From: Nitrospinota bacterium
GTDB taxonomy: Bacteria > UBA8248
Direction: 5' to 3'
Assembly: GCA_036231405.1 (NCBI GenBank)
Contig: JAZAHK010000047.1
Coordinates: 1-12,376, forward strand
Length of the DNA stretch: 12,376 nt
In this document: positions 179 to 12,376 of the stretch, piece by piece
Position numbering within the stretch: the first letter of the stretch is position 1
Layout: every line of letters begins with the position of its first letter
Program-made: the position numbers and the translations under genes
The notes under the pieces: generated by a model
The model's database searches: none
Seen by the model: only the letters and a program-made list of their open reading frames with translations
Told to the model about the DNA's origin: nothing

Positions 179-1108
179 ATGAAATTATCTTCCAGAAATC
201 TCTCTTTAATAAATGATTTTAGAGATTACTTGTACCTAGAAAGAAAGCTATCAGACAATACTATTCAGAGTTATTTGACAGACATTATCTCATTTGTATT
301 TTTCCTAGATGACAAGAAAACTAAATTGGACAATATCTCTAATCAAATCCTTACGGACTGGTTAACATTCCTTCGAAATTCAGGAAATTCAGATTCAACT
401 GTAAGAAGAAAAATATCTAGCGTGAAATCATTTTCAAAATTTTTATTGAAAGAAAAAATAGTAAAGAAAAATTTTACATCCGATCTAATCTCTTCAAAAG
501 TTTGGTCGAAAGTACCTAGAGTCCTAAATGATTCAGAAGTTTTGTCGTTAATTTTTGCACCGAAAAATCATAACCTTAAACGTGGTGCAATGAAGTACGA
601 AGATGAGAGAGACAGTTGTATTTTTGAATTTATGTATAGTACAGGTCTAAGAGCATCTGAGCTTGTATCAATGAAAATGCAACAATTAAATTTGAAAGAC
701 AACTACTGTATTTTTGAAGGAAAAGGTGAGAAAACCAGATTAGTCCCTATAGGTGATTTCGCTAGAGAAAGTTTAATTAAATATATTGAAAACATAAGGC
801 CTTTATTGTTAAAAAAAAAGAATAATCAAACTGATTATCTTTTTGTTACGAGAAGAGGCAAAGGAATGACGCGTCAAAGTCTTTGGAATAGAATAAAGTT
901 CTGGTCTACGAAAGCAGGGATTTCTAAAAATGTCAGTCCTCATACTCTTCGTCATAGTTTTGCTACGCATCTTCTTAAATTTGGATCTGATTTGAGGACT
1001 GTGCAAGTTTTGCTCGGGCATACGGATATATCTACAACTGAAATTTACACTCATATAGATAATCAAGATATAAAAAAATATTTAGATTCTAACCATCCGA
1101 GAGGATAG
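179..1108 (+). CDS. xerD: Site-specific tyrosine recombinase XerD
   Basis: Full catalytic set: TGLRASEL (R), GKGEK (K), SPHTLRHSFATHLL (H-x-x-R), LLGH (H), STTEIYTH (Y). The XerD-type MTRQSLWNRIK motif, the C-terminal HPRG and the N-terminal core-binding motif (ERKLSDNTIQSY) are present. SD-like AAAAGG at 162-167. Confidence 0.93.
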   Translation: MKLSSRNLSLINDFRDYLYLERKLSDNTIQSYLTDIISFVFFLDDKKTKLDNISNQILTDWLTFLRNSGNSDSTVRRKISSVKSFSKFLLKEKIVKKNFTSDLISSKVWSKVPRVLNDSEVLSLIFAPKNHNLKRGAMKYEDERDSCIFEFMYSTGLRASELVSMKMQQLNLKDNYCIFEGKGEKTRLVPIGDFARESLIKYIENIRPLLLKKKNNQTDYLFVTRRGKGMTRQSLWNRIKFWSTKAGISKNVSPHTLRHSFATHLLKFGSDLRTVQVLLGHTDISTTEIYTHIDNQDIKKYLDSNHPRG

Positions 1109-1115
1109 CGAAATT

Positions 1116-1141
1116 ATAGCGAAAATTGAAATTTTCTCTAT
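1116..1141. repeat. Inverted repeat (12-bp arms, 1 mismatch, 2-bp spacer) abutting the -35 box; candidate operator or weak hairpin
   Basis: ATAGCGAAAATT-GA-AATTTTCTCTAT. The reverse complement of the right arm is ATAGAGAAAATT, 11/12 identical to the left arm. ATAGCGAAA also occurs 11 bp earlier (1105-1113). Confidence 0.45.
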
Positions 1142-1169
1142 TGACTCGCATATTTAGTAAGAGTAGGAT
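1141..1169 (+). promoter_or_regulatory. Putative sigma70 promoter for phoH and downstream genes
   Basis: -35 TTGACT (1141-1146), 17-bp spacer, -10 TAGGAT (1164-1169) in the 91-bp xerD-phoH gap. It is followed by a strong SD GAGGTG (1186-1191) 8 nt before the TTG start. Confidence 0.6.
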
Positions 1170-1199
1170 TTTTATTTTTTTTAGAGAGGTGTTCGAATA

Positions 1200-2156
1200 T
1201 TGGTTAGTTTGAAGTCAGAAAACTATTTCACGGAATCTCATAAATTTATGGAATTTGTGGGAACTAAAGATTCTTCGCTTAAGGCCATTGAGAATGCTTT
1301 TAATGTAAATATTAGGATTTCTTCAGATTCTTTCATTTCTGAAGGTTCTGCTGATGATGCGCAGAGATCTATATCTTTTATAGACGAAATGATTGAGGTT
1401 TTAGATGAAGGGAATATTGTTGATAGTGCAACTATAGAGAATTTTGCAAATATTTTTAAAAATAATAAAAATACGACTATTAAAGAGTTATTATTAGACA
1501 GGATTGTAATCCCAGTAAATAACAGGATTATTCATCCTAGAAATCAAATGCAGAGAAAATATATAAGAGAAATGAAAAAGAAAGATATAGTTTTTGGCAT
1601 AGGTCCAGCAGGTACTGGTAAAACTTTTCTTGCCATGGCATACGCAATCAATAGGTTTTTACAAAAATCATGCTCGAAAATTATATTAACAAGGCCAGTA
1701 GTTGAAGCAGGAGAGAATTTAGGTTTTCTTCCGGGTGACTTGCATGAAAAACTAAGTCCTTTTCTAAGACCATTGTTTGATGCTCTAAATGATATTCTCG
1801 ATATAGAAAGAGTGGCACGACTTATGGAAAGGGGAGAGATTGAAATTGCTCCATTAGCATATATGAGAGGACGCACACTAAATAATGCATTTGTTATTCT
1901 AGATGAGGCTCAAAATACTACGGCCGAGCAAATGAAAATGTTTTTAACGAGAATAGGAAATAGCACAACAGCCGTCGTAACTGGAGATATCACTCAAACT
2001 GATCTCCCTAATCATAAAAAGAGCGGCTTGATTGAAGCAGCGGATGTTTTGAACGAGATATCAGACATTGGCTTCGTAAAATTTTCTAGCGAAGATGTTG
2101 TAAGGACTGAAATAGTTCAAAAGATAGTTACTGCATATGAAAATTTTAAAAAATAA
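1200..2156 (+). CDS. phoH: PhoH-family ATPase (YbeZ/PhoH-like)
   Basis: Walker A GPAGTGKTFLA, RPVVEAGENLGFLPGD, LAYMRGRTL, Walker B ILDEAQN, GDITQTDL and DVVR motifs. TTG start with a strong SD. Typical linkage with ybeY. Confidence 0.93.
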   Translation: MVSLKSENYFTESHKFMEFVGTKDSSLKAIENAFNVNIRISSDSFISEGSADDAQRSISFIDEMIEVLDEGNIVDSATIENFANIFKNNKNTTIKELLLDRIVIPVNNRIIHPRNQMQRKYIREMKKKDIVFGIGPAGTGKTFLAMAYAINRFLQKSCSKIILTRPVVEAGENLGFLPGDLHEKLSPFLRPLFDALNDILDIERVARLMERGEIEIAPLAYMRGRTLNNAFVILDEAQNTTAEQMKMFLTRIGNSTTAVVTGDITQTDLPNHKKSGLIEAADVLNEISDIGFVKFSSEDVVRTEIVQKIVTAYENFKK

Positions 2157-2173
2157 AAGGTTTATATCGAGCC

Positions 2174-4510
2174 ATGTCTTCTCAAATGAAATTTTCTAAA
2201 AAAAATTCAAATAAAAAATCTATCAAACAGTTGATCAGACACAAACTCTCTGGATTGTCTAAAAACGCAAAGAAATTTATGTCTTCTAAAATATTCGTAT
2301 GTTTTCTAACAATTTTACTCGCCTCGATTCTTTCTTTTTTGTTAATTTTTAAATGGTCTCCATCCTCTTCAAGTTATAAAGTTGGAGATGTCGTTCGTGG
2401 TAACATCAAGGCTCCATATGACCTGGAAGTGGTAGATGAAATTGCAACTAGAAATAGGATGCAAATCAATAGAGAAAAGATTCTGCCTCGCTACGATATT
2501 GATCTTTCTTTGATTTCAGACATTTCTGCTAGAATTAAAAATGCTTTTGATACTCTTCATCAACAAATCCTTTCTTCTCAGAATACTTTTTTAAAAGAAA
2601 AAAAATTAAAGGTGGAAAATTCGATTTCTAAAGATTTCTTTGTTAATGAGGTGGTTCATTTACCTTCCTATTTAAAAGCAGAGATAATATTTGAGAAAAA
2701 TTTAGGGGGAAATTTTCCTCCTAAACTCCTTTTTTTCTTTAGGAAAAATATATTTTCATTCTCAATAGCAGAGAATATGAAGAAAATTGTTAAACAAGCA
2801 CTTCCCAGAGAGATCGTTAGTGATAGACAACTATATGTTTCGCATTTAGTTAAAGGGATATTTGTTAAAGATATTGCTACAGGTGACAGAGTCAAAATTT
2901 CTTCATCTATAAAACCGGTTGAACTTAGAGAACTAGAAAAAATTGTTCTTGTTAATGTTGAGAATATAGAAAATCAGTATCCCAAAGAATTGCATGTTTT
3001 GTTAGCAAAACAAATTGTAAAAATGGCACGTCCAACTTTATCGTTCAATAGCCGCGCAACACTTAAAGAACAAAAAAAGGTATTAAATTTAACACGCAAA
3101 ATAAAGAAAAAGATTAAAGAAGGTGAAATGATAGTCCGAGATGGAGAAAGGCTGAATGAAAATCAATTGAAAATTTTAGAAAAATTACGTGATATAAATA
3201 GAACAGACTATTCCCTAGATTATTTTTTAGGAACAATGATAATAATTTCATTGTTCTTTGTTTTATGTTGGTTTGCAGTCAAGAGGTTTAATCTTTTAAA
3301 TTATAAAGAAGTAAAGCAAGTCATTTTGTTTGTTTTGCTAGTAATCTTGAATCTGTTGATTTTGAAATTCGGGGTTGTGATTGCACGTGGTCTGCAATCT
3401 AACTTCGAAGAATTTCATATTTCTGCTTTTTATAACTTGATTCCTTTTGCATCCATACCATTGATTTCACTTTTTCTTCAAGGTCGCAGAGAAGCAATCT
3501 TTATAACTATAATCAATTCTGTGATAGTTATGTTAATTCTTCCTGGGAATATTACCTATCCCTTAATGGTCCTCGCTCCTGGCATTGTAACTGCGTCTAA
3601 TTGGAAAAATTACACGTCCAGATCGACTATATTATATGTTGCAGTCGTCGTTGGAATGTTGAATGTTACAATAAATTCAGGCATTTATTTGCAAAAAGGA
3701 TTTTATGAATTTTTGAATAACTGGGATGTTATTCTTTTTACTTTTTTCGGTGGCTTAGGGAACATTATAATTGTCTCCTTCTTAATTCCAATTTTAGAGT
3801 CTCTTTTTAAGTTAACTACCGATATGAAATTATTAGAATTGTCTGATCAAAATCACCCACTACTCAAAGACATGATCTTAAGAGCTCCTGGAACTTATCA
3901 TCATAGCATTATGGTTGCGAATCTTGCAGAAGAGGCAGCTGATAAAGTTGAAGCTAGTGCGTTATTGGTTAGAGTTGGTGCTTTTTTTCATGACATAGGG
4001 AAAACTATCAAGTCTGAATATTTTATTGAAAACCAAATGTCAGAAAATAGACATGATAAATTAACACCTAACATGAGCGCTTTGATATTAATAAGCCATG
4101 TTAAAGAAGGAATTGAACTAGCAAAAAAACACAAATTGCCAAACGAAGTTATTGACTTAATTTCTCAACATCATGGAACATCAGTCATAAGATTTTTCTA
4201 TGATAAGGCGCTTAAATTACTAGAATCAAGAGAAGTCAGAATAGAAAGTTTTTGTTATCCTGGTCCAAGACCAAAAACAAAAGAAGCGGCGATTCTCATG
4301 CTTGCTGATATGGTTGAAGCTAGTGCTAAGACTCTTGCTGAACCATCGCCAGGACAACTGTCTAGTTTAGTTTCAAGGACAATACAGACAGTTGTTCAAG
4401 ATGCACAACTTGAAGAATGTACTCTTACCCTTTCAGATTTAGGTGCTATACAGGACTCTTTTCTTAGAGTTCTTGCTGGATTTTATCAACAACGTTTAAA
4501 TTACCCATAA
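2174..4510 (+). CDS. Membrane-bound 7TM-HD phosphohydrolase (PgpH/YqfF-like; putative cyclic-di-AMP phosphodiesterase)
   Basis: N-terminal TM helix, a large extracytoplasmic domain (VGDVVRGNIKAP...IKEGEMIVRDGE), about 7 hydrophobic helices, then an HD domain with APGTYHHS, HDIGK, YFIENQ, HVKEG, QHHGT and YPGPRPKTKEAAILMLAD.VEA. It sits between phoH and ybeY, as is typical for this family. Confidence 0.88.
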   Translation: MSSQMKFSKKNSNKKSIKQLIRHKLSGLSKNAKKFMSSKIFVCFLTILLASILSFLLIFKWSPSSSSYKVGDVVRGNIKAPYDLEVVDEIATRNRMQINREKILPRYDIDLSLISDISARIKNAFDTLHQQILSSQNTFLKEKKLKVENSISKDFFVNEVVHLPSYLKAEIIFEKNLGGNFPPKLLFFFRKNIFSFSIAENMKKIVKQALPREIVSDRQLYVSHLVKGIFVKDIATGDRVKISSSIKPVELRELEKIVLVNVENIENQYPKELHVLLAKQIVKMARPTLSFNSRATLKEQKKVLNLTRKIKKKIKEGEMIVRDGERLNENQLKILEKLRDINRTDYSLDYFLGTMIIISLFFVLCWFAVKRFNLLNYKEVKQVILFVLLVILNLLILKFGVVIARGLQSNFEEFHISAFYNLIPFASIPLISLFLQGRREAIFITIINSVIVMLILPGNITYPLMVLAPGIVTASNWKNYTSRSTILYVAVVVGMLNVTINSGIYLQKGFYEFLNNWDVILFTFFGGLGNIIIVSFLIPILESLFKLTTDMKLLELSDQNHPLLKDMILRAPGTYHHSIMVANLAEEAADKVEASALLVRVGAFFHDIGKTIKSEYFIENQMSENRHDKLTPNMSALILISHVKEGIELAKKHKLPNEVIDLISQHHGTSVIRFFYDKALKLLESREVRIESFCYPGPRPKTKEAAILMLADMVEASAKTLAEPSPGQLSSLVSRTIQTVVQDAQLEECTLTLSDLGAIQDSFLRVLAGFYQQRLNYP

Positions 4511-4541
4511 AAAATCGACACTAAAAAAGGTTCAAAAATAA

Positions 4542-5003
4542 ATGGGAATAACCATATCAAACAGACAAAGACTCCTGAAAATAGACAGGAAAAGACTCCA
4601 CAGAAACGCTAGATTTTGGTTAAATTTCTTAAATTCTAATGAGAATTTGATTTCGTTAGTTTTTGTTCGTGACAATAGTATGAGAACTTTGAATTTTCAA
4701 TTTAGAGGAATAGATGAGACAACTGACGTACTTGCATTTCCGGATTTTTTTAGAGGAAACAAGTCTATAGACAATAAAACTATCGCCCATGCAATTAATG
4801 AATCTTTTATAGGTGATGTGATTATTTCTACCGATGAAGTTAAAAGATTGTTTATTGAAGAAAAAAAAAACGTACACGATCTAATAGATGAACTTTTTTT
4901 GCACGGAATTCTTCATCTTTATGAATATGGTCATCAAACAAAAAAAGAAAAAATAAAGATGAGAAAAATAGAAAAGAAATTATATAAAACTAGGCCTAAA
5001 TAG
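4542..5003 (+). CDS. ybeY: rRNA maturation factor / endoribonuclease YbeY
   Basis: LNFQFRG...TDVLAFP, IGDVIIS and the H-x3-H-x5-H metal motif HGILHLYEYGH. Length 153 aa; downstream of phoH and the HD gene. Confidence 0.88.
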   Translation: MGITISNRQRLLKIDRKRLHRNARFWLNFLNSNENLISLVFVRDNSMRTLNFQFRGIDETTDVLAFPDFFRGNKSIDNKTIAHAINESFIGDVIISTDEVKRLFIEEKKNVHDLIDELFLHGILHLYEYGHQTKKEKIKMRKIEKKLYKTRPK

Positions 5004-5026
5004 CATTTTTATAAAAGGATTTTAAT

Positions 5027-5533
5027 TTGTTCAGATTATGGGCGCCATGGAGAATGAAATATATTGAGGAAGGTAAAGACGATTCAAAAAAAGTATCCTC
5101 TAAATCTAGTGGTTGCGCATTTTGTACTATAGTTAATAAAAAAGACAGTGTGGATAATCTAATTTTAAAAAGAGGGGAATATTGTTATATTGTTCTTAAT
5201 AAATATCCATATAGCAATGGGCATTTAATGGTTGTTCCTTTTAGACATATACGAGATTTGGAAGAATTGGAACCTAAAGAATATAACGAAATATTTTCTT
5301 TCGTTCAGCATTCGGTTTCCATATTAAAAAAAAGCTTTATGGCAGACGGATTCAATATAGGGTTCAACATAGGAGAAACAGCTGGAGCAGGTATAGCAAA
5401 ACATTTGCATATGCATGTTGTACCGAGATGGAATGGAGATCATAATTTAATGTCTGTAATTTCAGAGACTAGAGTTTTACCAGAATCACTTCAAACTTCT
5501 TATTCAACTCTATCTGGACATTTCACTAGTTAG
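5027..5533 (+). CDS. HIT-family nucleotide hydrolase (bacterial Fhit-like; Ap4A hydrolase/phosphorylase type)
   Basis: LWAPWRMKYI N-terminus, CAFC, LNKYPYSNGHLMVVP, GFNIGFNIGETAGAGI and the histidine triad HLHMHVVPRWNGD. TTG start with SD AAAAGGA (5013-5019). Confidence 0.9.
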   Translation: MFRLWAPWRMKYIEEGKDDSKKVSSKSSGCAFCTIVNKKDSVDNLILKRGEYCYIVLNKYPYSNGHLMVVPFRHIRDLEELEPKEYNEIFSFVQHSVSILKKSFMADGFNIGFNIGETAGAGIAKHLHMHVVPRWNGDHNLMSVISETRVLPESLQTSYSTLSGHFTS

Positions 5534-5544
5534 GGGGACTTTAG

Positions 5545-5817
5545 ATGGGTGGATTTAGGCTAGTTCTAGGATTTGTTCTTGCAATAGCAATTGCCTTATT
5601 TGGGGTTAAAAATTTTCATCTTGTTATGGTCCAATATTATTTTGGCAAGAGTCAGTTTCCATTGTTCTTTATTTTGATCATTACTTTTTCGTTTGGATTC
5701 TTTATCTGCTGGTTTGCTAGTCTTTCAGAAAGATTTAGAACTAAACGATTAGTAAGATTTCTTGAGAGAAGAATCTCTTCTTTGGGAGGAGAGATAAGAA
5801 CTGATGAATTTAAGTGA
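5545..5817 (+). CDS. lapA: LapA-family (DUF1049/YciS-like) small inner-membrane protein
   Basis: 90 aa with two hydrophobic helices and the pattern F..KN...V.V.YYFG....PLFFILIITF.FGFFI, followed by a basic amphipathic tail (RFRTKRLVRFLERRI). SD GGGGA just upstream. Confidence 0.75.
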   Translation: MGGFRLVLGFVLAIAIALFGVKNFHLVMVQYYFGKSQFPLFFILIITFSFGFFICWFASLSERFRTKRLVRFLERRISSLGGEIRTDEFK

Positions 5818-8603: not shown

Positions 8604-9230
8604 ATGTATTCCCCTAAAGAATTATTGAAAATGAAAATTTTTGCAATAGTTTTAATAAATCTTTTTTTTATAAATTTTGCTTATGCTGCTAATACTAAGG
8701 TTGGCAAAGAAAAACCTGAAAAAATAAATACGGATCCTATTCTTAAAGATATTTTAGTAATTAAAAAAAATAAAAAAATGTTAATTTTTATATCTTCTGA
8801 AAATACTGTAACCGAAGAGTTTTGGGAAATTGTAAGAAAGGGTGTAAAAACCCGTTTTGTTTACGAACTTGAATTATATAAGAAGGTCCCGTATTTCTTC
8901 GATTCAATGGTCTTAGAAAAAGAGATTGCCCACGAAGTAAAATTTGATCCAATTAAAAAAGTTTTCGTGTGTAAAAGTCGAAATGGTGCTGAAGATTATT
9001 TTTTGAAATTTACAAAGGAAAGTTCAGAAATTTCGGATTGGATGTCACAAATTAATGGTATCGACTTGATTGATTCTGATAAACTTGATCCGTCACAACT
9101 ATATTACATTAAAGTTCGTGTTAAATTTAACTCCTTGAATTTTGCTTTCCCTTTTAATTATTTTTTGTCATTTACTACAAAAGAAACTGATTGGTTTTAT
9201 TCCACTTATTTTGCTAATGAAGGTATGTGA
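8604..9230 (+). CDS. DUF4390-like exported protein (NtrYX-module accessory protein)
   Basis: Signal peptide ending AYA|A (alternative start ATG at 8631). Pattern G....FVYELELY....YFFD......HEVKFDPI and C-terminal YYIKVRVK...FPFNY...ETDW. It overlaps the start of an NtrY-like kinase gene, the usual position of DUF4390 genes. Confidence 0.72.
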   Translation: MYSPKELLKMKIFAIVLINLFFINFAYAANTKVGKEKPEKINTDPILKDILVIKKNKKMLIFISSENTVTEEFWEIVRKGVKTRFVYELELYKKVPYFFDSMVLEKEIAHEVKFDPIKKVFVCKSRNGAEDYFLKFTKESSEISDWMSQINGIDLIDSDKLDPSQLYYIKVRVKFNSLNFAFPFNYFLSFTTKETDWFYSTYFANEGM

Positions 9231-11527
9231 TGTACTCCTCTAACTTTACCTATGATACTGAAGAAGAAATACTCACCAGGAGAAGAAAAAATGTTCTTAG
9301 AGCGGTATTAGGATTAATTGGAATAAGCGTAATTCTATTAACTGGATGGATATATTTTAAGGAATTAGATCCTGGCACCCCTCTTTTAAATAACGTAGTT
9401 GTCTTTTCCCTAATAAATCTAAATATCATACTACTAATGGTACTGATCGTATTAGTAGTGAGAAATCTTGTTCATTTGTATTCGTCAGCTAGGTCTCCAT
9501 CTGGAAGAGGACGTCTTCAATTAAGACTAATTCTTGCATTTGTAATGATTGCACTTTTGCCTACTTTAGGTCTTTTCATAGTTGCAAGTGGTTTAATTGA
9601 TAAAAGTTTTAACACTTTTTTTAATCCTAAAGTAGAAAATGCCTTGAAAGGTTCTTTTGATGTCGCAAATGAATACTACCGCGCTTCTGAAGGAATGCTC
9701 TTGCTAAAAGGAAGAGAACTTGGAGAAGAAATAGAAAGTCATTCATGGAGCACTCCAGAATCATTCTCTTATTTCAAACAATTCCTTAACTCTAAAATTG
9801 AATTAATTGACGCATCTAGTGCTAGTTTGTATGACAAATCAAGAAAAATGATCGTTTCTGTAAGAAGAAAAGAAACGTTATCAGTTGGCGATGATAAGAA
9901 TAAAATACAACAAATTCTTCCTCCCGACTTTGACTTTATAGATAAAGTTTTAGAAGGGAAATCTATGTCTACACTAGAGAATTCAGAAGATGGAGATATT
10001 GTTTATGCAGTAGTGCCTATTAAAGGAACTTCTGGTGTTGTTGGGTATTTAGTTGTGTCCAAATTAATTTCAAAAAGATTAGTGGCTAAAGTAGAAGGAT
10101 TAATGAAAGCTTATGACCAGTTTTTTGAACTAAAATTATCAAAAAATCCGATAAAAGCAAGTTACATCATTACATTTCTTTTAGTCTCCCTGTTGATTTT
10201 ATTTTCAGCTATTTGGTTCGGATTCCATTTTGCAAGAGGGATAACTGTCCCTATCGAAAAATTAGCAGAAGGGACTCTTGCAGTTTCCGAAGGTGATTTG
10301 GGTTATCGTGTTGAAACAAAGGCAGAAGGTGAAATAGGAACACTTGTAGAAGCATTCAATAGAATGACAAAAGAATTGCAAACAAATAAAAAAGAGATCG
10401 AAGAGAAAACTGAAAATCTAACAAAATCTAACCTTGAAATCGACAGAAGACGTGTATACATGGAAGCAATGCTTGATAATGTCCGTACAGGTGTTATTTC
10501 AGTCAATAGGAGAGGTCAGGTAACTATCCTGAACCAATTTGCCTCGGAAATATTGAACATTATTCCAAAAGAAGTCATAGGTAAACATTTCAACGAAATT
10601 TTTAAAAATGAATATTTAGAATTAATTAGAAGTTTGATTCGTTCTAGTGACTCAGTAAACAATTTGAATTTTTCTAAACAAATAGAATTGCTTATAGATG
10701 GTCAAATGCTTGTGTTTTATGCAAGTCTTACATTTCTAAAAAGTAAGGATGGAAGCAGGCTAGGAACTGTGCTAGTTTTTGATGACCTCACTGACCTTAT
10801 TAGAACGCAAAAGGTTGCAGCATGGAGGGAAGTTGCGCAGGGCATTGCCCATGAAATCAAAAACCCTTTGACGCCTATTCAACTATCTGCACAAAGAATG
10901 AGAGCAAAATACAATCAAAACACATCTGATTTTCCTCAAATTTTAGAAATCTGTACAGATACCATAGTCAATCAGGTTAAAGTTCTAATGGAAATGATAG
11001 ATGAGTTTAGTAGTTTCGCAAGAATGCCAGAACCAAGATTAAGGTTATGCAAGACAGATGAACTGATCCATAATGTGATAAGCCTTTATCGTGATCGAAG
11101 AGAAGATATTAAAATCAAATCAAATATTCCTAACTCATTACCGTCTTTAATGGCTGATCCAGAACAAGTGCAAAGAGTTTTTATTAATTTGCTTGAGAAC
11201 GCATTTGAGTCTATGAAAAATGGTGGAGAAATTCAATTTAATGTTTCTTCTGATAATGAGAAGGAAAAATTGATCTTTGAAATAAAAGATGAAGGCAAAG
11301 GAATCTTGGCAAAAGAAAAAGAACATATATTTTCTCCTTATTTCACAACGAAAGCGAGCGGTTCTGGTTTAGGGCTTGCTATCTGTCATAGGATTATTTC
11401 AGATCATAATGGAATGATATCTGTAAAAGACAATCATCCAATAGGTTCGACTTTTGAAATACAATTGCCTTCTAAGAAAGATTTTTTACCTGCAGGTAAT
11501 TCTGAAAGGTTTATAAATGTTGGGTAA
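9227..11527 (+). CDS. ntrY: NtrY-like membrane sensor histidine kinase (TM-periplasmic-HAMP-PAS-HisKA-HATPase)
   Basis: Three N-terminal TM helices, a periplasmic domain, a fourth TM, HAMP (GITVPIEKLAEG...EIGTLVEAFNRMT) and PAS (MLDNVRTGVISVN). H-box AAWREVAQGIAHEIKNPLTPIQLSAQR (His codon 10850-10852), N box INLLENA, G1 DEGKGI, F box IFSPYFTTK, G2 GSGLGLAI. The start may be GTG 9227 or ATG 9230. Confidence 0.9.
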   Translation: MMYSSNFTYDTEEEILTRRRKNVLRAVLGLIGISVILLTGWIYFKELDPGTPLLNNVVVFSLINLNIILLMVLIVLVVRNLVHLYSSARSPSGRGRLQLRLILAFVMIALLPTLGLFIVASGLIDKSFNTFFNPKVENALKGSFDVANEYYRASEGMLLLKGRELGEEIESHSWSTPESFSYFKQFLNSKIELIDASSASLYDKSRKMIVSVRRKETLSVGDDKNKIQQILPPDFDFIDKVLEGKSMSTLENSEDGDIVYAVVPIKGTSGVVGYLVVSKLISKRLVAKVEGLMKAYDQFFELKLSKNPIKASYIITFLLVSLLILFSAIWFGFHFARGITVPIEKLAEGTLAVSEGDLGYRVETKAEGEIGTLVEAFNRMTKELQTNKKEIEEKTENLTKSNLEIDRRRVYMEAMLDNVRTGVISVNRRGQVTILNQFASEILNIIPKEVIGKHFNEIFKNEYLELIRSLIRSSDSVNNLNFSKQIELLIDGQMLVFYASLTFLKSKDGSRLGTVLVFDDLTDLIRTQKVAAWREVAQGIAHEIKNPLTPIQLSAQRMRAKYNQNTSDFPQILEICTDTIVNQVKVLMEMIDEFSSFARMPEPRLRLCKTDELIHNVISLYRDRREDIKIKSNIPNSLPSLMADPEQVQRVFINLLENAFESMKNGGEIQFNVSSDNEKEKLIFEIKDEGKGILAKEKEHIFSPYFTTKASGSGLGLAICHRIISDHNGMISVKDNHPIGSTFEIQLPSKKDFLPAGNSERFINVG

Positions 11528-12376
11528 TGGTTCTGTTCTTATCATTGATGATGAAACTGCTATTACTTCTAGTTTAGAAGCTATTCTGACAGACGAAGGT
11601 TACAAAGTTTACAAAGCGAATTCAGGTGAGAAAGGAATTGAATTAGCCCTTTCTGAATCTCCAGATGTAATTCTTGCTGATGTTTGGATGCCTGGTATTG
11701 ATGGGATTCAGACACTGCAAGTTTTGAAAGAATCAGAATTGCACTCAGAAGTAATACTTATGTCCGGTCATGCAAATATTGAAACCGCAGTAAAAGCTAC
11801 AAAAATAGGAGCGTTTGATTTTATAGAAAAACCGCTGTCTATGGAAACAGTTATAAAAGTTATAGCGGAAGCAATTGAATCAAAAGAATATAAATGGTCT
11901 GAGAAAGAAGGTTCTTCTAAAGGAAAAAACACTTCTCTTAAAATTCCAAAATTAAGTAACAAAAAAAAACAACAAAAAAATAAAACAACACAGAAAACAA
12001 TTTCTAGAAGCGTTGTTTTATATGGAAGAGGCCTACATTCTGGACTAAAAACAGGATTGATACTGGAACCACTGCCGCCAGATAGTGGTATCCATTTTGG
12101 AAGTTTAACTAATCCAGAAACAATTCCAGCGGATGTATTATTTGTCGATAATACGAATCATTCTACCAATCTAAAACATGGTTCTGTAATTGCGAGAACA
12201 ATCGAACATTTAATGAGTGCACTTTACGCATACGGAATTACAAATTTGTTAATAAAAATTGGTGCAGAAGTTCCAATTATGGATGGCTCATCCATTGTTT
12301 TCTGTCAAGAAATTGAAAAAGCTTTAATAATAGAACAGAACAAATCAATAAACCATATAGTTATAGATAAGACTTA
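11517..12376 (+). CDS. lpxC: Response-regulator receiver domain fused to UDP-3-O-acyl-N-acetylglucosamine deacetylase LpxC (partial, runs off the window; absent from the ORF track)
   Basis: ATG at 11517 (SD AAAGGT 11505-11510; 11-nt overlap with the kinase gene) opens 286 stop-free codons. Residues 1-~121 form a REC domain: MLGNGSVLIIDDE...DVILADVWMPGIDG...ILMSGHANIETAVKATKIGAFDFIEKPLS. Residues ~122-158 are a Lys-rich linker. From residue 159 (11991) it is LpxC: QKTISRSVVLYGRGLHSG...LPPDSGIHF...RTIEHLMSALYAYGITNLLI...EVPIMDGSS. Confidence 0.92.
   Translation, partial: MLGNGSVLIIDDETAITSSLEAILTDEGYKVYKANSGEKGIELALSESPDVILADVWMPGIDGIQTLQVLKESELHSEVILMSGHANIETAVKATKIGAFDFIEKPLSMETVIKVIAEAIESKEYKWSEKEGSSKGKNTSLKIPKLSNKKKQQKNKTTQKTISRSVVLYGRGLHSGLKTGLILEPLPPDSGIHFGSLTNPETIPADVLFVDNTNHSTNLKHGSVIARTIEHLMSALYAYGITNLLIKIGAEVPIMDGSSIVFCQEIEKALIIEQNKSINHIVIDKT

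What the first reader, a model, noticed from the sequence alone, without database searches (positions are those of the whole stretch)
11517..12376. Receiver domain fused in-frame to LpxC: a phosphorylatable lipid A committed-step enzyme
Seen in sequence: one frame with no stop joins a REC domain that keeps all canonical residues (D11/D12, phosphoacceptor D55 at 11679, S83, F102, K105-P106) to an LpxC N-terminal half with GLHSG (H174), the catalytic/zinc TIEHL motif (E230/H231) and EVPIMDGS. The linker has no in-frame ATG/GTG/TTG, and its only out-of-frame ATG (11894) stops after two codons, so lpxC has no independent start. A homopolymer error would therefore not easily explain the join. Established: LpxC catalyses the committed step of the Raetz lipid A pathway, and in E. 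coli it is controlled by FtsH/LapB proteolysis. Inference: here LpxC activity, oligomerisation or stability may be switched by aspartate phosphorylation. I know of no experimental characterisation of this architecture, but I cannot check databases.
Basis: partly seen in the sequence, partly recalled or inferred. Interest (0 to 1): 0.92.

Follow-up and report, generated by a model that had tools for sequence, protein, structure and literature searches.

The report
Receiver domain fused to LpxC enzyme
This marine bacterium's only gene for LpxC, the enzyme that commits a cell to making outer-membrane lipid A, is fused to a phosphorylation-sensing receiver domain, probably putting the enzyme under direct, still untested, control of a sensor kinase.

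Summary
Window 11517-12376 is one open frame: an intact receiver (REC) domain, a 42-residue linker and the first 127 positions of LpxC. The contig ends inside the gene.

Three congeneric genomes and a 97%-identical database protein give the full 432-residue protein, with the C-terminal zinc and catalytic motifs and a stop. An independent metagenome contig crosses the A-rich linker without an indel. This is the only LpxC found in the genome.

The gene is the stripped-down form of a family in which a whole NtrX-type response regulator (REC, decayed AAA+, Fis HTH) is fused to LpxC. It follows a DUF4390 (PlrP-like) gene and an NtrY-like kinase.

In the window's phylum, 50 of 51 species genomes have one LpxC, in a fused-length frame wherever the contig allows. 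The fused LpxC domains form one clade that also holds MAGs labelled Thermoanaerobaculia, Binataceae, Terriglobia and Thermodesulfobacteriota. The AAA+/HTH module was lost about eight times, while REC and LpxC catalytic residues stayed invariant.

Direct phospho-control of LpxC is the best reading, but it is inferred. Eight literature searches found no description. This scan has noted the family before on other DNA.

The parts
8604..9230 (+). DUF4390 (PlrP-like) protein, 208 aa, with an N-terminal hydrophobic signal-like segment. Likely a periplasmic third component of the NtrYX-type system.
   Evidence: Pfam DUF4390, E 7.3e-18. Translation. It overlaps the kinase start by 4 nt, as plrP and plrS do in Bordetella (PMC13001219, passages read).
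9227..11527 (+). NtrY-like sensor histidine kinase, 766 aa (NtrY_N, HAMP, PAS, HisKA, HATPase_c).
   Evidence: Pfam hits (NtrY_N 2.9e-14, HAMP 1.2e-13, HisKA 2.8e-09, HATPase_c 9e-23). Its stop at 11525-11527 lies 11 nt inside the REC-LpxC frame.
11517..12376 (+). REC-LpxC fusion gene, the first 286 of an expected 432 codons. It is cut by the contig end.
   Evidence: Full-length orthologues are L004:1057-2355:-, L003:1057-2355:- and L005:1501-2799:+. P0125 is 97% identical.
11535..11864 (+). Receiver (REC) domain, residues 7-116. The phospho-acceptor D55 codon is at 11679-11681.
   Evidence: Pfam Response_reg, E 7.4e-29. D11, D12, D55, S83, K105 and P106 are conserved in 32/32 short and 136-139/139 long family members. 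The best solved relatives are NtrC-family and NtrX receivers.
11865..11990 (+). Linker, residues 117-158. It is Lys-rich and fast-evolving, with A6/A9/A7 homopolymers and no start codon.
   Evidence: One search gives the starts and homopolymers. One search gives 53-55% amino-acid identity to congeners, against 90-93% in the flanking domains. One search shows the linkers of separate short-form lineages are unrelated. AF2 pLDDT is 56-73 here.
11991..12371 (+). N-terminal half of the LpxC deacetylase domain (profile positions 1-127 of 268). The catalytic Glu and zinc-ligand His (E230/H231) are at 12204-12209.
   Evidence: The orthologue aligns with Aquifex aeolicus LpxC 2ier over residues 159-429 (E 1.2e-51).

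Best explanation
The window encodes the 5' two-thirds of a 432-residue protein. An NtrX-type receiver domain is tethered by a flexible, roughly 40-residue linker to a complete, catalytically competent LpxC.

It is the third gene of a translationally coupled unit: a DUF4390/PlrP-like periplasmic protein, an NtrY-like sensor kinase, then REC-LpxC. It is the organism's only LpxC.

It descends from a fusion of a whole NtrX response regulator (REC, AAA+ without GAFTGA, Fis HTH) to LpxC. That fusion arose once. This genus later lost the AAA+ and DNA-binding parts by internal deletion.

The most likely mechanism is as follows. The NtrY-like kinase/phosphatase sets the phosphorylation state of D55. 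[quoted passage not shown]

Shown here: the gene structure, the operon context, single-copy status, a single origin of the fused LpxC domains, repeated domain loss, and purifying selection on REC.

Inferred: that phosphotransfer happens and that it changes LpxC function. Which property changes is not resolved. It could be catalysis by intramolecular occlusion as in CheB, dimerisation, proteolytic stability, or recruitment to the membrane kinase.
For: 1. The gene is real and complete in relatives. Orthologues of 432 aa occur in 3 of 3 congeneric genomes at 85-88% identity. P0125 is 97% identical over 286 aa with no gap. A foreign contig bridges the linker with 0 gaps.

2. LpxC is competent. The orthologue aligns with Aquifex LpxC over residues 159-429 (E 1.2e-51). 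E230, H231, T343, H389, K390, D393, D397 and H416 are invariant in 32/32 short forms and 137-139/139 long forms.

3. It is the sole copy. PF03331 gives 1 match in the own genome. In the phylum, 50 of 51 species genomes have LpxC at a single locus; two rows per genome appear only where a contig end or frame break splits the gene. LpxB is present, so the pathway exists.

4. REC is kept functional. The D-D-D-S/T-K set is essentially invariant. Within the genus, REC dN/dS is 0.011-0.054 in 5 of 6 pairs (not computable in the sixth, where dS saturated), LpxC is 0.010-0.072 and the linker is 0.074-0.371 (dS is near saturation).

5. A cognate kinase is adjacent. The NtrY-like kinase overlaps the start by 11 nt, and DUF4390 overlaps the kinase by 4 nt. 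The same mutS-DUF4390-kinase-fusion-purM order holds in G009, G027 and G048. An NtrY-like kinase also lies directly upstream in two Binataceae MAGs.

6. Family history. All 120 listed long hits carry REC, an AAA+ family and LpxC. Linker length is bimodal: 40-73 aa in 33 sequences and 275-368 aa in 139, with none between. Fused LpxC domains form one clade with support 1.0 and a long stem against about 65 free LpxCs. Short forms are polyphyletic, with a Fitch minimum of 8 changes. The short form P0137 (= G048) still carries the last HTH helix of its long relative P0046, while 20 of the 23 genomes of its genus have frames of 719-743 aa.

7. No other NtrX-like output was seen. The only strong sigma54-type AAA+ protein in the genome is GAF-AAA+-HTH, without REC.

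8. The functional link is known elsewhere.
- Loss of NtrYX raises lpxC mRNA 8.8-fold and raises LPS in R. sphaeroides (PMC7240162, passages).
- NtrYX represses lpxC in Caulobacter as well (PMC12444477, section 10 passage).
- The D. vulgaris regulator DVU2934 has lpxC as its single target (PMC3333781, passages).

9. The orthologue ends 3 residues after the LpxC fold. It therefore has no C-terminal tail of the kind that E. coli FtsH uses. That role is recalled, and supported only by a reference title seen.
Against: - No experiment or expression data bear on phosphorylation or on its effect. The one RNA contig that matched covers only the kinase 3' end.
- REC retention is not absolute. Of 48 representatives at 50% identity in the high-scoring fused group, 37 have a Pfam REC. 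Most of the other 11 look like 5'-truncated gene calls. P0201 and P0203, about 290 aa each and starting with M, may be true REC-less descendants. P0195 has END in place of the DDE acid pocket.
- One long form (G036) has no kinase next to it.
- The direction of change rests on partial evidence: midpoint rooting, Dollo-type reasoning and one clear HTH remnant. In the outgroup-rooted LpxC tree the earliest fused branches (Binataceae, Thermoanaerobaculia) are short forms, so plain parsimony there does not prove a long ancestor.
- LpxC is a monomer in the solved structures I know of (recalled). A dimerisation switch therefore has no precedent.
- In the window itself the C-terminal half of the enzyme cannot be seen.
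Confidence: 0.6

Rival explanations
1. The receiver domain is a passive module, a tether or scaffold. It docks LpxC to the membrane-bound NtrY-like kinase, or makes it dimeric, and it guarantees co-expression. The phosphorylation state does not tune the enzyme. The fusion persists because it localises or stabilises LpxC.
For: - LpxC needs no partner for catalysis in the solved structures (recalled).
- The linkers are long, disordered and non-homologous between lineages. That fits a tether.
- The review reports that the LapB homologue Ght of N. meningitidis was suggested to localise LpxC to the inner membrane (PMC12444477, passage).
Against: A passive tether would not need the complete phospho-acceptor chemistry. 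D11, D12, D55, S/T83 and K105 are kept in 32/32 short and 136-139/139 long forms. REC dN/dS is as low as that of LpxC.
Confidence: 0.2
2. LpxC is the input, not the output. Occupancy of the enzyme by substrate or product alters how well the attached REC takes or loses phosphate. The fusion then reports lipid A flux back to the NtrY system. In short forms REC acts as a phosphate sink competing with another regulator.
For: - In long forms the same polypeptide carries a Fis-type HTH, so a transcriptional output exists there.
- NtrY acts mainly as a phosphatase in Caulobacter (bioRxiv 10.1101/2021.04.17.440287, passages). PlrS does so in Bordetella (PMC13001219, passages).
Against: - The HTH and AAA+ were discarded about 8 times while LpxC was always kept.
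- The AAA+ of long forms in this family has lost GAFTGA and the Walker B acidic pair.
- No other NtrX-like REC-AAA+ regulator was found in the window's genome. The genome is only 91.9% complete, and other REC proteins were not surveyed.
Confidence: 0.1
3. The join is an artefact: a homopolymer indel in the A-rich linker, or a chimeric contig, has merged a single-domain response regulator gene with a separate lpxC.
For: The linker has A6, A9 and A7 runs. The assembly is a fragmented MAG of 48 contigs. Only assembled contigs, not raw reads, could be laid on the stretch.
Against: - The same frame and length are seen in 3 of 3 congeners.
- P0125 shows 0 gaps. An independent contig shows 0 gaps across 11576-12067.
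- There are 27 further short-form database proteins.
- No start codon is available for a separate lpxC.
Confidence: 0.02
4. The fused LpxC domain is catalytically dead and serves only as a ligand-binding or regulatory domain. Lipid A synthesis either uses another enzyme or is absent.
For: None found. I considered it because the window shows only the N-terminal half of the enzyme.
Against: - All zinc and catalytic residues are invariant across the family.
- No second PF03331 match occurs in the own genome, nor in 49 other genomes of the phylum.
- LpxB is present.
Confidence: 0.03

Closest known systems
NtrY/NtrX (PlrS/PlrR) two-component systems, including the DUF4390/PlrP third component
   Same: - An NtrY-type kinase (NtrY_N, HAMP, PAS, HisKA, HATPase) is preceded by an overlapping DUF4390 gene (PMC13001219).
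- The REC domain is most similar to NtrC-family and NtrX receivers.
- Long relatives have the whole NtrX layout, with an AAA+ that lacks GAFTGA and a Fis HTH.
- NtrYX is already linked to lpxC expression and LPS level in alphaproteobacteria.
   Different: The regulator is covalently joined to LpxC. In the window's genus the AAA+ and DNA-binding domains are gone, so the only visible output is the enzyme itself. None of the NtrYX or LpxC papers I read mentions such a fusion.
Response regulators with enzymatic outputs, above all CheB (REC plus methylesterase), and also PleD and RpfG
   Same: The layout is an N-terminal REC, a flexible linker and a C-terminal enzyme. This is the standard design in which phosphorylation relieves or imposes control on a catalytic domain. 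The CheB occlusion mechanism is recalled, not tested here.
   Different: The output domain is a zinc deacetylase of an essential biosynthetic pathway, not a signalling enzyme. No inhibitory REC-enzyme interface could be shown.
Known controls of LpxC: FtsH/LapB proteolysis in E. coli, Lon in some alphaproteobacteria, and transcriptional control by NtrYX, ChvGI and DVU2934
   Same: [quoted passage not shown]
   Different: The regulator sits in the same polypeptide. The orthologue has no C-terminal tail beyond the LpxC fold.
LpxC-FabZ (LpxC plus FabA-like hotdog) bifunctional proteins
   Same: This is another natural LpxC fusion. One example was seen in G037: 434 aa, LpxC 330 bits plus FabA 131 bits.
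   Different: There the partner is C-terminal and is a metabolic enzyme that shares the acyl-ACP pool. Here the partner is N-terminal and is a signalling domain. No FabA domain is present.

Membership tests
LpxC (PF03331, UDP-3-O-acyl-N-acetylglucosamine deacetylase) | Sequence match to the family profile above the curated cut-off | tested here: met
   The window scores 114.3 bits against a cut-off of 27, but only over profile positions 1-127 of 268. The orthologue G001 scores 268.6 bits over positions 1-266.
LpxC (PF03331, UDP-3-O-acyl-N-acetylglucosamine deacetylase) | Zinc ligands (His of the EH motif; His and Asp of HKxxD) and catalytic Glu, Thr and His | tested here: met
   E230 and H231 are in the window. 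T343, H389, K390, D393, D397 and H416 can be seen only in orthologues and in P0125, because the contig ends. They are invariant in 32/32 short and 137-139/139 long forms. The residue roles are recalled from the Aquifex and E. coli literature.
LpxC (PF03331, UDP-3-O-acyl-N-acetylglucosamine deacetylase) | Deacetylase activity on UDP-3-O-acyl-GlcNAc | not testable with these tools
   Inferred from it being the single LpxC of the genome and from the presence of LpxB.
Response regulator receiver domain (PF00072) | Profile match plus the acidic pocket, phospho-acceptor Asp, Ser/Thr and Lys | tested here: met
   100.6 bits against a cut-off of 30.2. D11, D12, D55, S83 and K105 are present and conserved family-wide.
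Response regulator receiver domain (PF00072) | Phosphotransfer from a cognate histidine kinase | not testable with these tools
   There is only context: the NtrY-like kinase overlaps the start codon.
NtrX / PlrR response regulators | Encoded directly after an NtrY-type kinase (with DUF4390 upstream in the PlrP subset) | tested here: met
   for the window. for relatives.
NtrX / PlrR response regulators | REC, then AAA+ without GAFTGA, then a Fis-type HTH | tested here: not met
   The window protein and its 432-aa orthologues have only REC and LpxC. Long relatives do meet this feature. The window protein is therefore a derivative of NtrX, not a member by architecture.
CheB-like enzymatic response regulators | N-terminal REC joined by a linker to a catalytic domain | tested here: met
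   (REC 6-125, low-confidence linker, LpxC 156-430 in the AF2 model).
CheB-like enzymatic response regulators | The unphosphorylated REC packs against and blocks the active site | not testable with these tools
   No model coordinates or interface read-out were available to me.
LpxC-FabZ bifunctional proteins | A FabA/FabZ hotdog domain C-terminal to LpxC | tested here: not met
   The orthologues end 3 residues after the LpxC fold, and Pfam finds no FabA domain.

The most novel reading that the evidence does not exclude
A three-component NtrYX-type system (periplasmic DUF4390 protein, NtrY-like kinase, receiver) has as its conserved and, in this genus, only output the direct post-translational switching of LpxC. 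On this reading the transcription-factor half of NtrX was dispensable and was shed about eight or more times. The REC-LpxC pair is the selected unit. It would be the so far missing LpxC control device in the diderm phyla that carry the fusion, whose LpxC has no C-terminal tail of the E. coli kind. It would also explain mechanistically why NtrYX and lpxC are linked in proteobacteria.
Probability: 0.45. Interest if true: 0.85.

Novelty: new variant of a known kind. Interest (0 to 1): 0.72.

Why it matters
[quoted passage not shown] It is essential, it is an antibiotic target, and too much or too little of it is harmful to the cell.

Outside enterobacteria its control is poorly understood. The 2025 review of lipid A regulation that I read in passages lists only proteolysis and indirect transcriptional effects.

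A receiver domain welded to the sole LpxC of a whole phylum of marine bacteria, and of members of several other phyla, would be a new kind of control on this step: a two-component signal acting on the enzyme itself. Labels in the protein databases name the window's relatives Nitrospinota or Nitrospinae.

It is directly testable with one recombinant protein. It also acts as a natural fusion clue for the unexplained NtrYX-lpxC link in alphaproteobacteria and the DVU2934-lpxC link in Desulfovibrio. Finally, it gives an example of a response regulator repeatedly discarding its DNA-binding output while keeping an enzyme.

Tried and rejected
- Complex prediction with the REC domain (1-124) against the LpxC domain (157-432), both from alignment A1, returned 'no answer' (score 0.00, controls not run). 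It is no evidence either way.
- The AF2 model of the 432-aa orthologue gave pLDDT 88.4 and pTM 0.83. The high pTM may hint at a defined inter-domain arrangement. I could not obtain coordinates or PAE, so I draw nothing from it.
- I looked for the missing C-terminal half of LpxC elsewhere in the assembly, with the Pfam family and with the G001 protein. It was not found.
- RNA evidence: the single RNA run that matched covers only 11324-11524, the kinase 3' end. Nothing is known about expression of the fusion.
- The LapB search with PF18073 gave no match in this 91.9%-complete genome. The 28-position model also matches Gram-positive control genomes, so the result is uninformative.
- No separate NtrX-like regulator was found in the own genome. 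Only a GAF-AAA+-HTH protein and weak AAA+ matches appeared. Other REC proteins were not surveyed.
- In the LpxC-domain tree, my frame-picking script took a wrong frame for L027. It also labelled L026 and L033 as 'free' although they carry N-terminal extensions of 211 and 277 aa. I left these rows in, and they do not change the clade.
- The window's own truncated protein (P0001) was left out of the trees.
- Every fourth long form plus all short forms were used, 67 of 171 sequences.


Full report
**1. What is in the window**

The window is an entire 12,376-bp contig of a 2.09-Mb, 48-contig, 91.9%-complete genome with 31.9% G+C. All the genes discussed lie on the + strand:
- an integrase gene, then phoH, a 7TM-HD receptor gene, ybeY and a HIT-family gene;
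- a 90-aa LapA-domain gene, then mutS;
- a DUF4390 gene (8604-9230);
- an NtrY-like histidine kinase gene (9227-11527);
- the frame of the finding (11517-12376).

That frame starts at an ATG 11 nt before the kinase stop. It runs 286 codons to the contig end without a stop. Pfam finds Response_reg at residues 7-116 (E 7.4e-29). It finds LpxC at residues 159-285, equal to profile positions 1-127 of 268 (E 9.1e-33).

Between residue 109 and residue 181 there is no in-frame ATG, GTG or TTG. The out-of-frame ATG at 11894 dies after two codons. An out-of-frame TTG at 11875 opens only 26 codons.

**2. Is the join real, and is the enzyme whole?**

The linker contains A6, A9 and A7 runs, so an indel error had to be excluded. 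Three lines of evidence exclude it.
- All three other genomes of the genus (G001-G003) carry the same gene at 85-88% identity. It is a 432-codon frame with the same linker length and is followed by purM.
- A database protein from another assembly, P0125 (432 aa), is 278/286 identical to the window protein with no gap.
- A 494-nt contig from an independent public run lies on 11576-12067 with 7 substitutions and 0 gaps. It bridges the end of REC, the whole linker and the start of LpxC. These were assembled contigs, not raw reads.

The 432-aa orthologues contain the C-terminal half of the enzyme. They align with Aquifex aeolicus LpxC (2ier) over residues 159-429 (E 1.2e-51). The ARTF, HKxxD...D and GH motifs are matched, and the proteins end 3 residues after the fold. 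The missing half of the window's own gene is not elsewhere in the assembly; the contig simply ends.

PF03331 has one match in the genome, and LpxB is present. This fused gene is therefore the organism's LpxC as far as a 91.9%-complete genome can show.

**3. The family behind it**

*Long forms.* A search for longer relatives returned 514 proteins. All 120 listed (623-773 aa) carry Response_reg, a sigma54-type AAA+ family and/or its lid, and LpxC. Some also carry HTH_8. Their source names are 'UDP-3-O-acyl-GlcNAc deacetylase' or 'NtrX', and their labels are Nitrospinota, Nitrospinae, Tectomicrobia or plain 'bacterium'.

Reading one of them (G009, 710 aa) gives the layout REC, AAA+, AAA lid, Fis-type HTH, LpxC. 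Its middle part matches NtrC4, NtrC1, ZraR and Brucella NtrX (E 1e-15 to 5e-13). However, the GAFTGA segment is deleted and the Walker B Asp-Glu reads Gly-Gly. A class-level relative (G027) has a better preserved AAA+ (105 bits) and a scored HTH_8. The long form is thus a whole NtrX fused to LpxC.

*Short forms.* A search at similar lengths listed 120 proteins, all with REC and LpxC. Twenty-seven of them, plus the window's own protein, lack any AAA+ family and are 405-459 aa long. In a joint alignment of 172 sequences the stretch between REC and LpxC is 40-73 aa in 33 sequences. It is 275-368 aa in 139, with nothing in between.

**4. Distribution**

The window's phylum holds 51 species genomes. 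Fifty of them have LpxC, always at one locus. By the length of the open frame:
- 11 are short forms: 4 in the window's genus, 5 in genus g2, plus G006 and G048;
- 38 are long forms or long forms cut by a contig end;
- one (G043) is a 70-aa fragment that cannot be classified.

For the 17 extra genomes of genus g8 I saw only the frame lengths, not the REC match itself.

The order mutS, DUF4390, NtrY-like kinase, fusion, purM, purN holds in G009, G027 and G048.

It found contiguous REC-LpxC genes in:
- a MAG titled Deltaproteobacteria (447 aa);
- MAGs titled Thermoanaerobaculales or Thermoanaerobaculia (432 aa in L025);
- Candidatus Binataceae (422 and 425 aa, each directly behind an NtrY-like kinase);
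- Terriglobia (425 aa).

It also found a long form in a MAG titled Thermodesulfobacteriota (734 aa, kinase upstream).

I built a tree of 147 LpxC domains. The fused ones form a single clade with support 1.0 on a long stem, apart from about 65 free LpxCs. Three rows were mislabelled by my script, as told under Tried and rejected. The fusion therefore arose once, or at least within one lpxC lineage.

In an exhaustive search of 1.84 billion cluster representatives, scores fall from about 200 bits to about 190 bits where LpxC moves to the N-terminus of the hit. Of 48 representatives above or near that step, 48 have LpxC, 37 have REC, 21 have the AAA lid and 7 have HTH_8. Most of those without REC begin inside the AAA+, lid or REC regions and look like truncated gene calls. 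P0201 and P0203 may be genuine REC-less forms.

**5. Repeated loss of the DNA-binding half**

On a REC+LpxC tree of 171 sequences the short forms fall into about eight separate groups nested among long forms. The Fitch minimum is 8 changes, with a long root under midpoint rooting. Six of these placements have local support of 0.87 or more, and two are weak.

The linkers of the separate short lineages are unrelated in sequence and differ in length.

In one case the direction of change can be seen directly. P0137 is the protein of G048, in a genus where 20 of 23 genomes have frames of 719-743 aa. It retains the last helix of the Fis HTH of its long relative P0046, immediately before LpxC. About 250 residues between REC and that helix are gone.

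One caveat applies. In the outgroup-rooted LpxC tree the earliest fused branches are short forms. A long ancestor therefore rests on the argument that a complete NtrX layout is easily lost and unlikely to be regained by insertion.

**6. Selection on the two kept domains**

Across 32 short and 139 long forms, the phospho-acceptor chemistry of REC is conserved. D55, K105 and P106 are invariant. D11 and D12 are invariant apart from 2 truncated rows and one Asn. Position 83 is always Ser or Thr. The LpxC residues E230, H231, T343, H389, K390, D393, D397 and H416 are invariant apart from 2 truncated rows.

| Segment (within the genus) | dN/dS |
|---|---|
| REC | 0.011-0.054 (5 of 6 pairs; the sixth not computable) |
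| LpxC, N-terminal half | 0.010-0.033 |
| LpxC, C-terminal half | 0.058-0.072 |
| Linker | 0.074-0.371 |

dS is at or near saturation, so these ratios are rough. Even so, the receiver is constrained as tightly as the essential enzyme it is attached to.

**7. How it probably works**

Several facts are shown.
- A kinase with the NtrY N-terminal region, HAMP, PAS, HisKA and ATPase domains is translationally coupled to REC-LpxC.
- That kinase is preceded by a DUF4390 protein with a signal-like N-terminus.
- The only strong sigma54-type AAA+ protein elsewhere in the genome is GAF-AAA+-HTH. No other NtrX-like partner was seen.

The literature gives context.
- DUF4390/PlrP is a periplasmic third component that restrains the phosphatase activity of the NtrY homologue PlrS (PMC13001219, passages).
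- Caulobacter NtrY acts mainly as an NtrX phosphatase (bioRxiv 10.1101/2021.04.17.440287, passages).
- Loss of NtrYX raises lpxC mRNA 8.8-fold and raises LPS in R. sphaeroides, with no NtrX site at lpxC (PMC7240162, passages).
- The 2025 review of lipid A regulation lists NtrYX and ChvGI only as broad transcriptional inputs. It has no occurrence of 'fusion', 'fused', 'receiver' or 'response regulator' (PMC12444477).
- The D. vulgaris regulator DVU2934 has lpxC as its single target. In S. fumaroxidans lpxC lies next to the orthologous regulator operon (PMC3333781, passages).

My inference is this. The NtrY-like kinase/phosphatase, modulated by the DUF4390 protein, sets D55 phosphorylation. The receiver's state then alters LpxC.

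I cannot say which property changes. The layout of REC, flexible linker and enzyme is that of CheB. The receiver belongs to the NtrC/NtrX class, which signals through dimer rearrangement (recalled). The orthologue lacks any C-terminal tail beyond the LpxC fold.

I put 0.6 on phosphorylation-dependent control of LpxC function of some kind. I put 0.2 on a passive tether or scaffold, 0.1 on LpxC acting as the input, and very little on an artefact or a dead enzyme.

**8. Comparison with what is known, and novelty**

By architecture the window protein is not an NtrX, because it has no AAA+ and no HTH. It is a derivative of one. It is an LpxC by every sequence criterion that can be checked.

It works like the enzymatic response regulators such as CheB, PleD and RpfG, but with an output domain that I found in none of the papers searched. 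Eight full-text searches returned no description of a REC-LpxC or NtrX-LpxC protein. Those searches do not cover most subscription journals or database annotations such as InterPro architectures.

The proteins themselves are plentiful in public databases under plain LpxC or NtrX names.

This scan's own notebook holds 21 earlier notes on the same family in other genomes. They agree with what I found independently. I did not use them as evidence.

I class the finding as a new variant of a known kind. The new elements are the output (the committed-step enzyme of lipid A synthesis) and the evolutionary pattern (repeated shedding of the transcription-factor half).

**9. Verdict**

Interest is 0.72.

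Noticed in passing
window 5545-5817 (+): A 90-aa protein with a LapA domain (lipopolysaccharide assembly protein A; Pfam E 3.1e-14) lies just upstream of mutS, four genes before REC-LpxC. No LapB-like gene is next to it. In E. coli, lapA is paired with lapB, the adaptor for LpxC proteolysis (recalled).
   Followed up: partly
window 179-5533 (+): The upstream genes are a XerC/D-type integrase (179-1108), PhoH (1200-2156), a 7TM receptor with an intracellular HD hydrolase (2174-4510), YbeY (4542-5003) and a HIT-family protein (5027-5533). All are on the same strand and closely spaced.
   Followed up: no
L033 (MAG titled Thermodesulfobacteriota), 2596-3828: This is a 410-aa frame that begins inside the AAA lid and continues through the HTH into LpxC. 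A separate 399-aa frame lies upstream. It may be a frameshifted or split long form.
   Followed up: no
P0201, P0203, P0195: Two proteins of about 290 aa score with the fused LpxC group, start with Met and have LpxC at residue 9-11. They may have lost REC. P0195 (695 aa) has END in place of the DDE acid pocket of the receiver and may be a pseudo-receiver.
   Followed up: no
G051:C19:33661-34399: In an 8-Mb genome of genus g8, far larger than its relatives, the LpxC match is split between two frames (profile positions 1-203 and 199-244). This suggests a frameshift or an assembly problem.
   Followed up: no
L021 (G036, another phylum), 2315-5672 (-): A 731-aa long-form NtrX-LpxC has GreA and a TrmB-type methyltransferase upstream instead of a kinase. 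It is an orphan fusion whose kinase, if there is one, is encoded elsewhere.
   Followed up: no
L023 (G037), 1149-2453 (-): A 434-aa LpxC plus FabA-like hotdog fusion. This is the other natural LpxC fusion type.
   Followed up: partly
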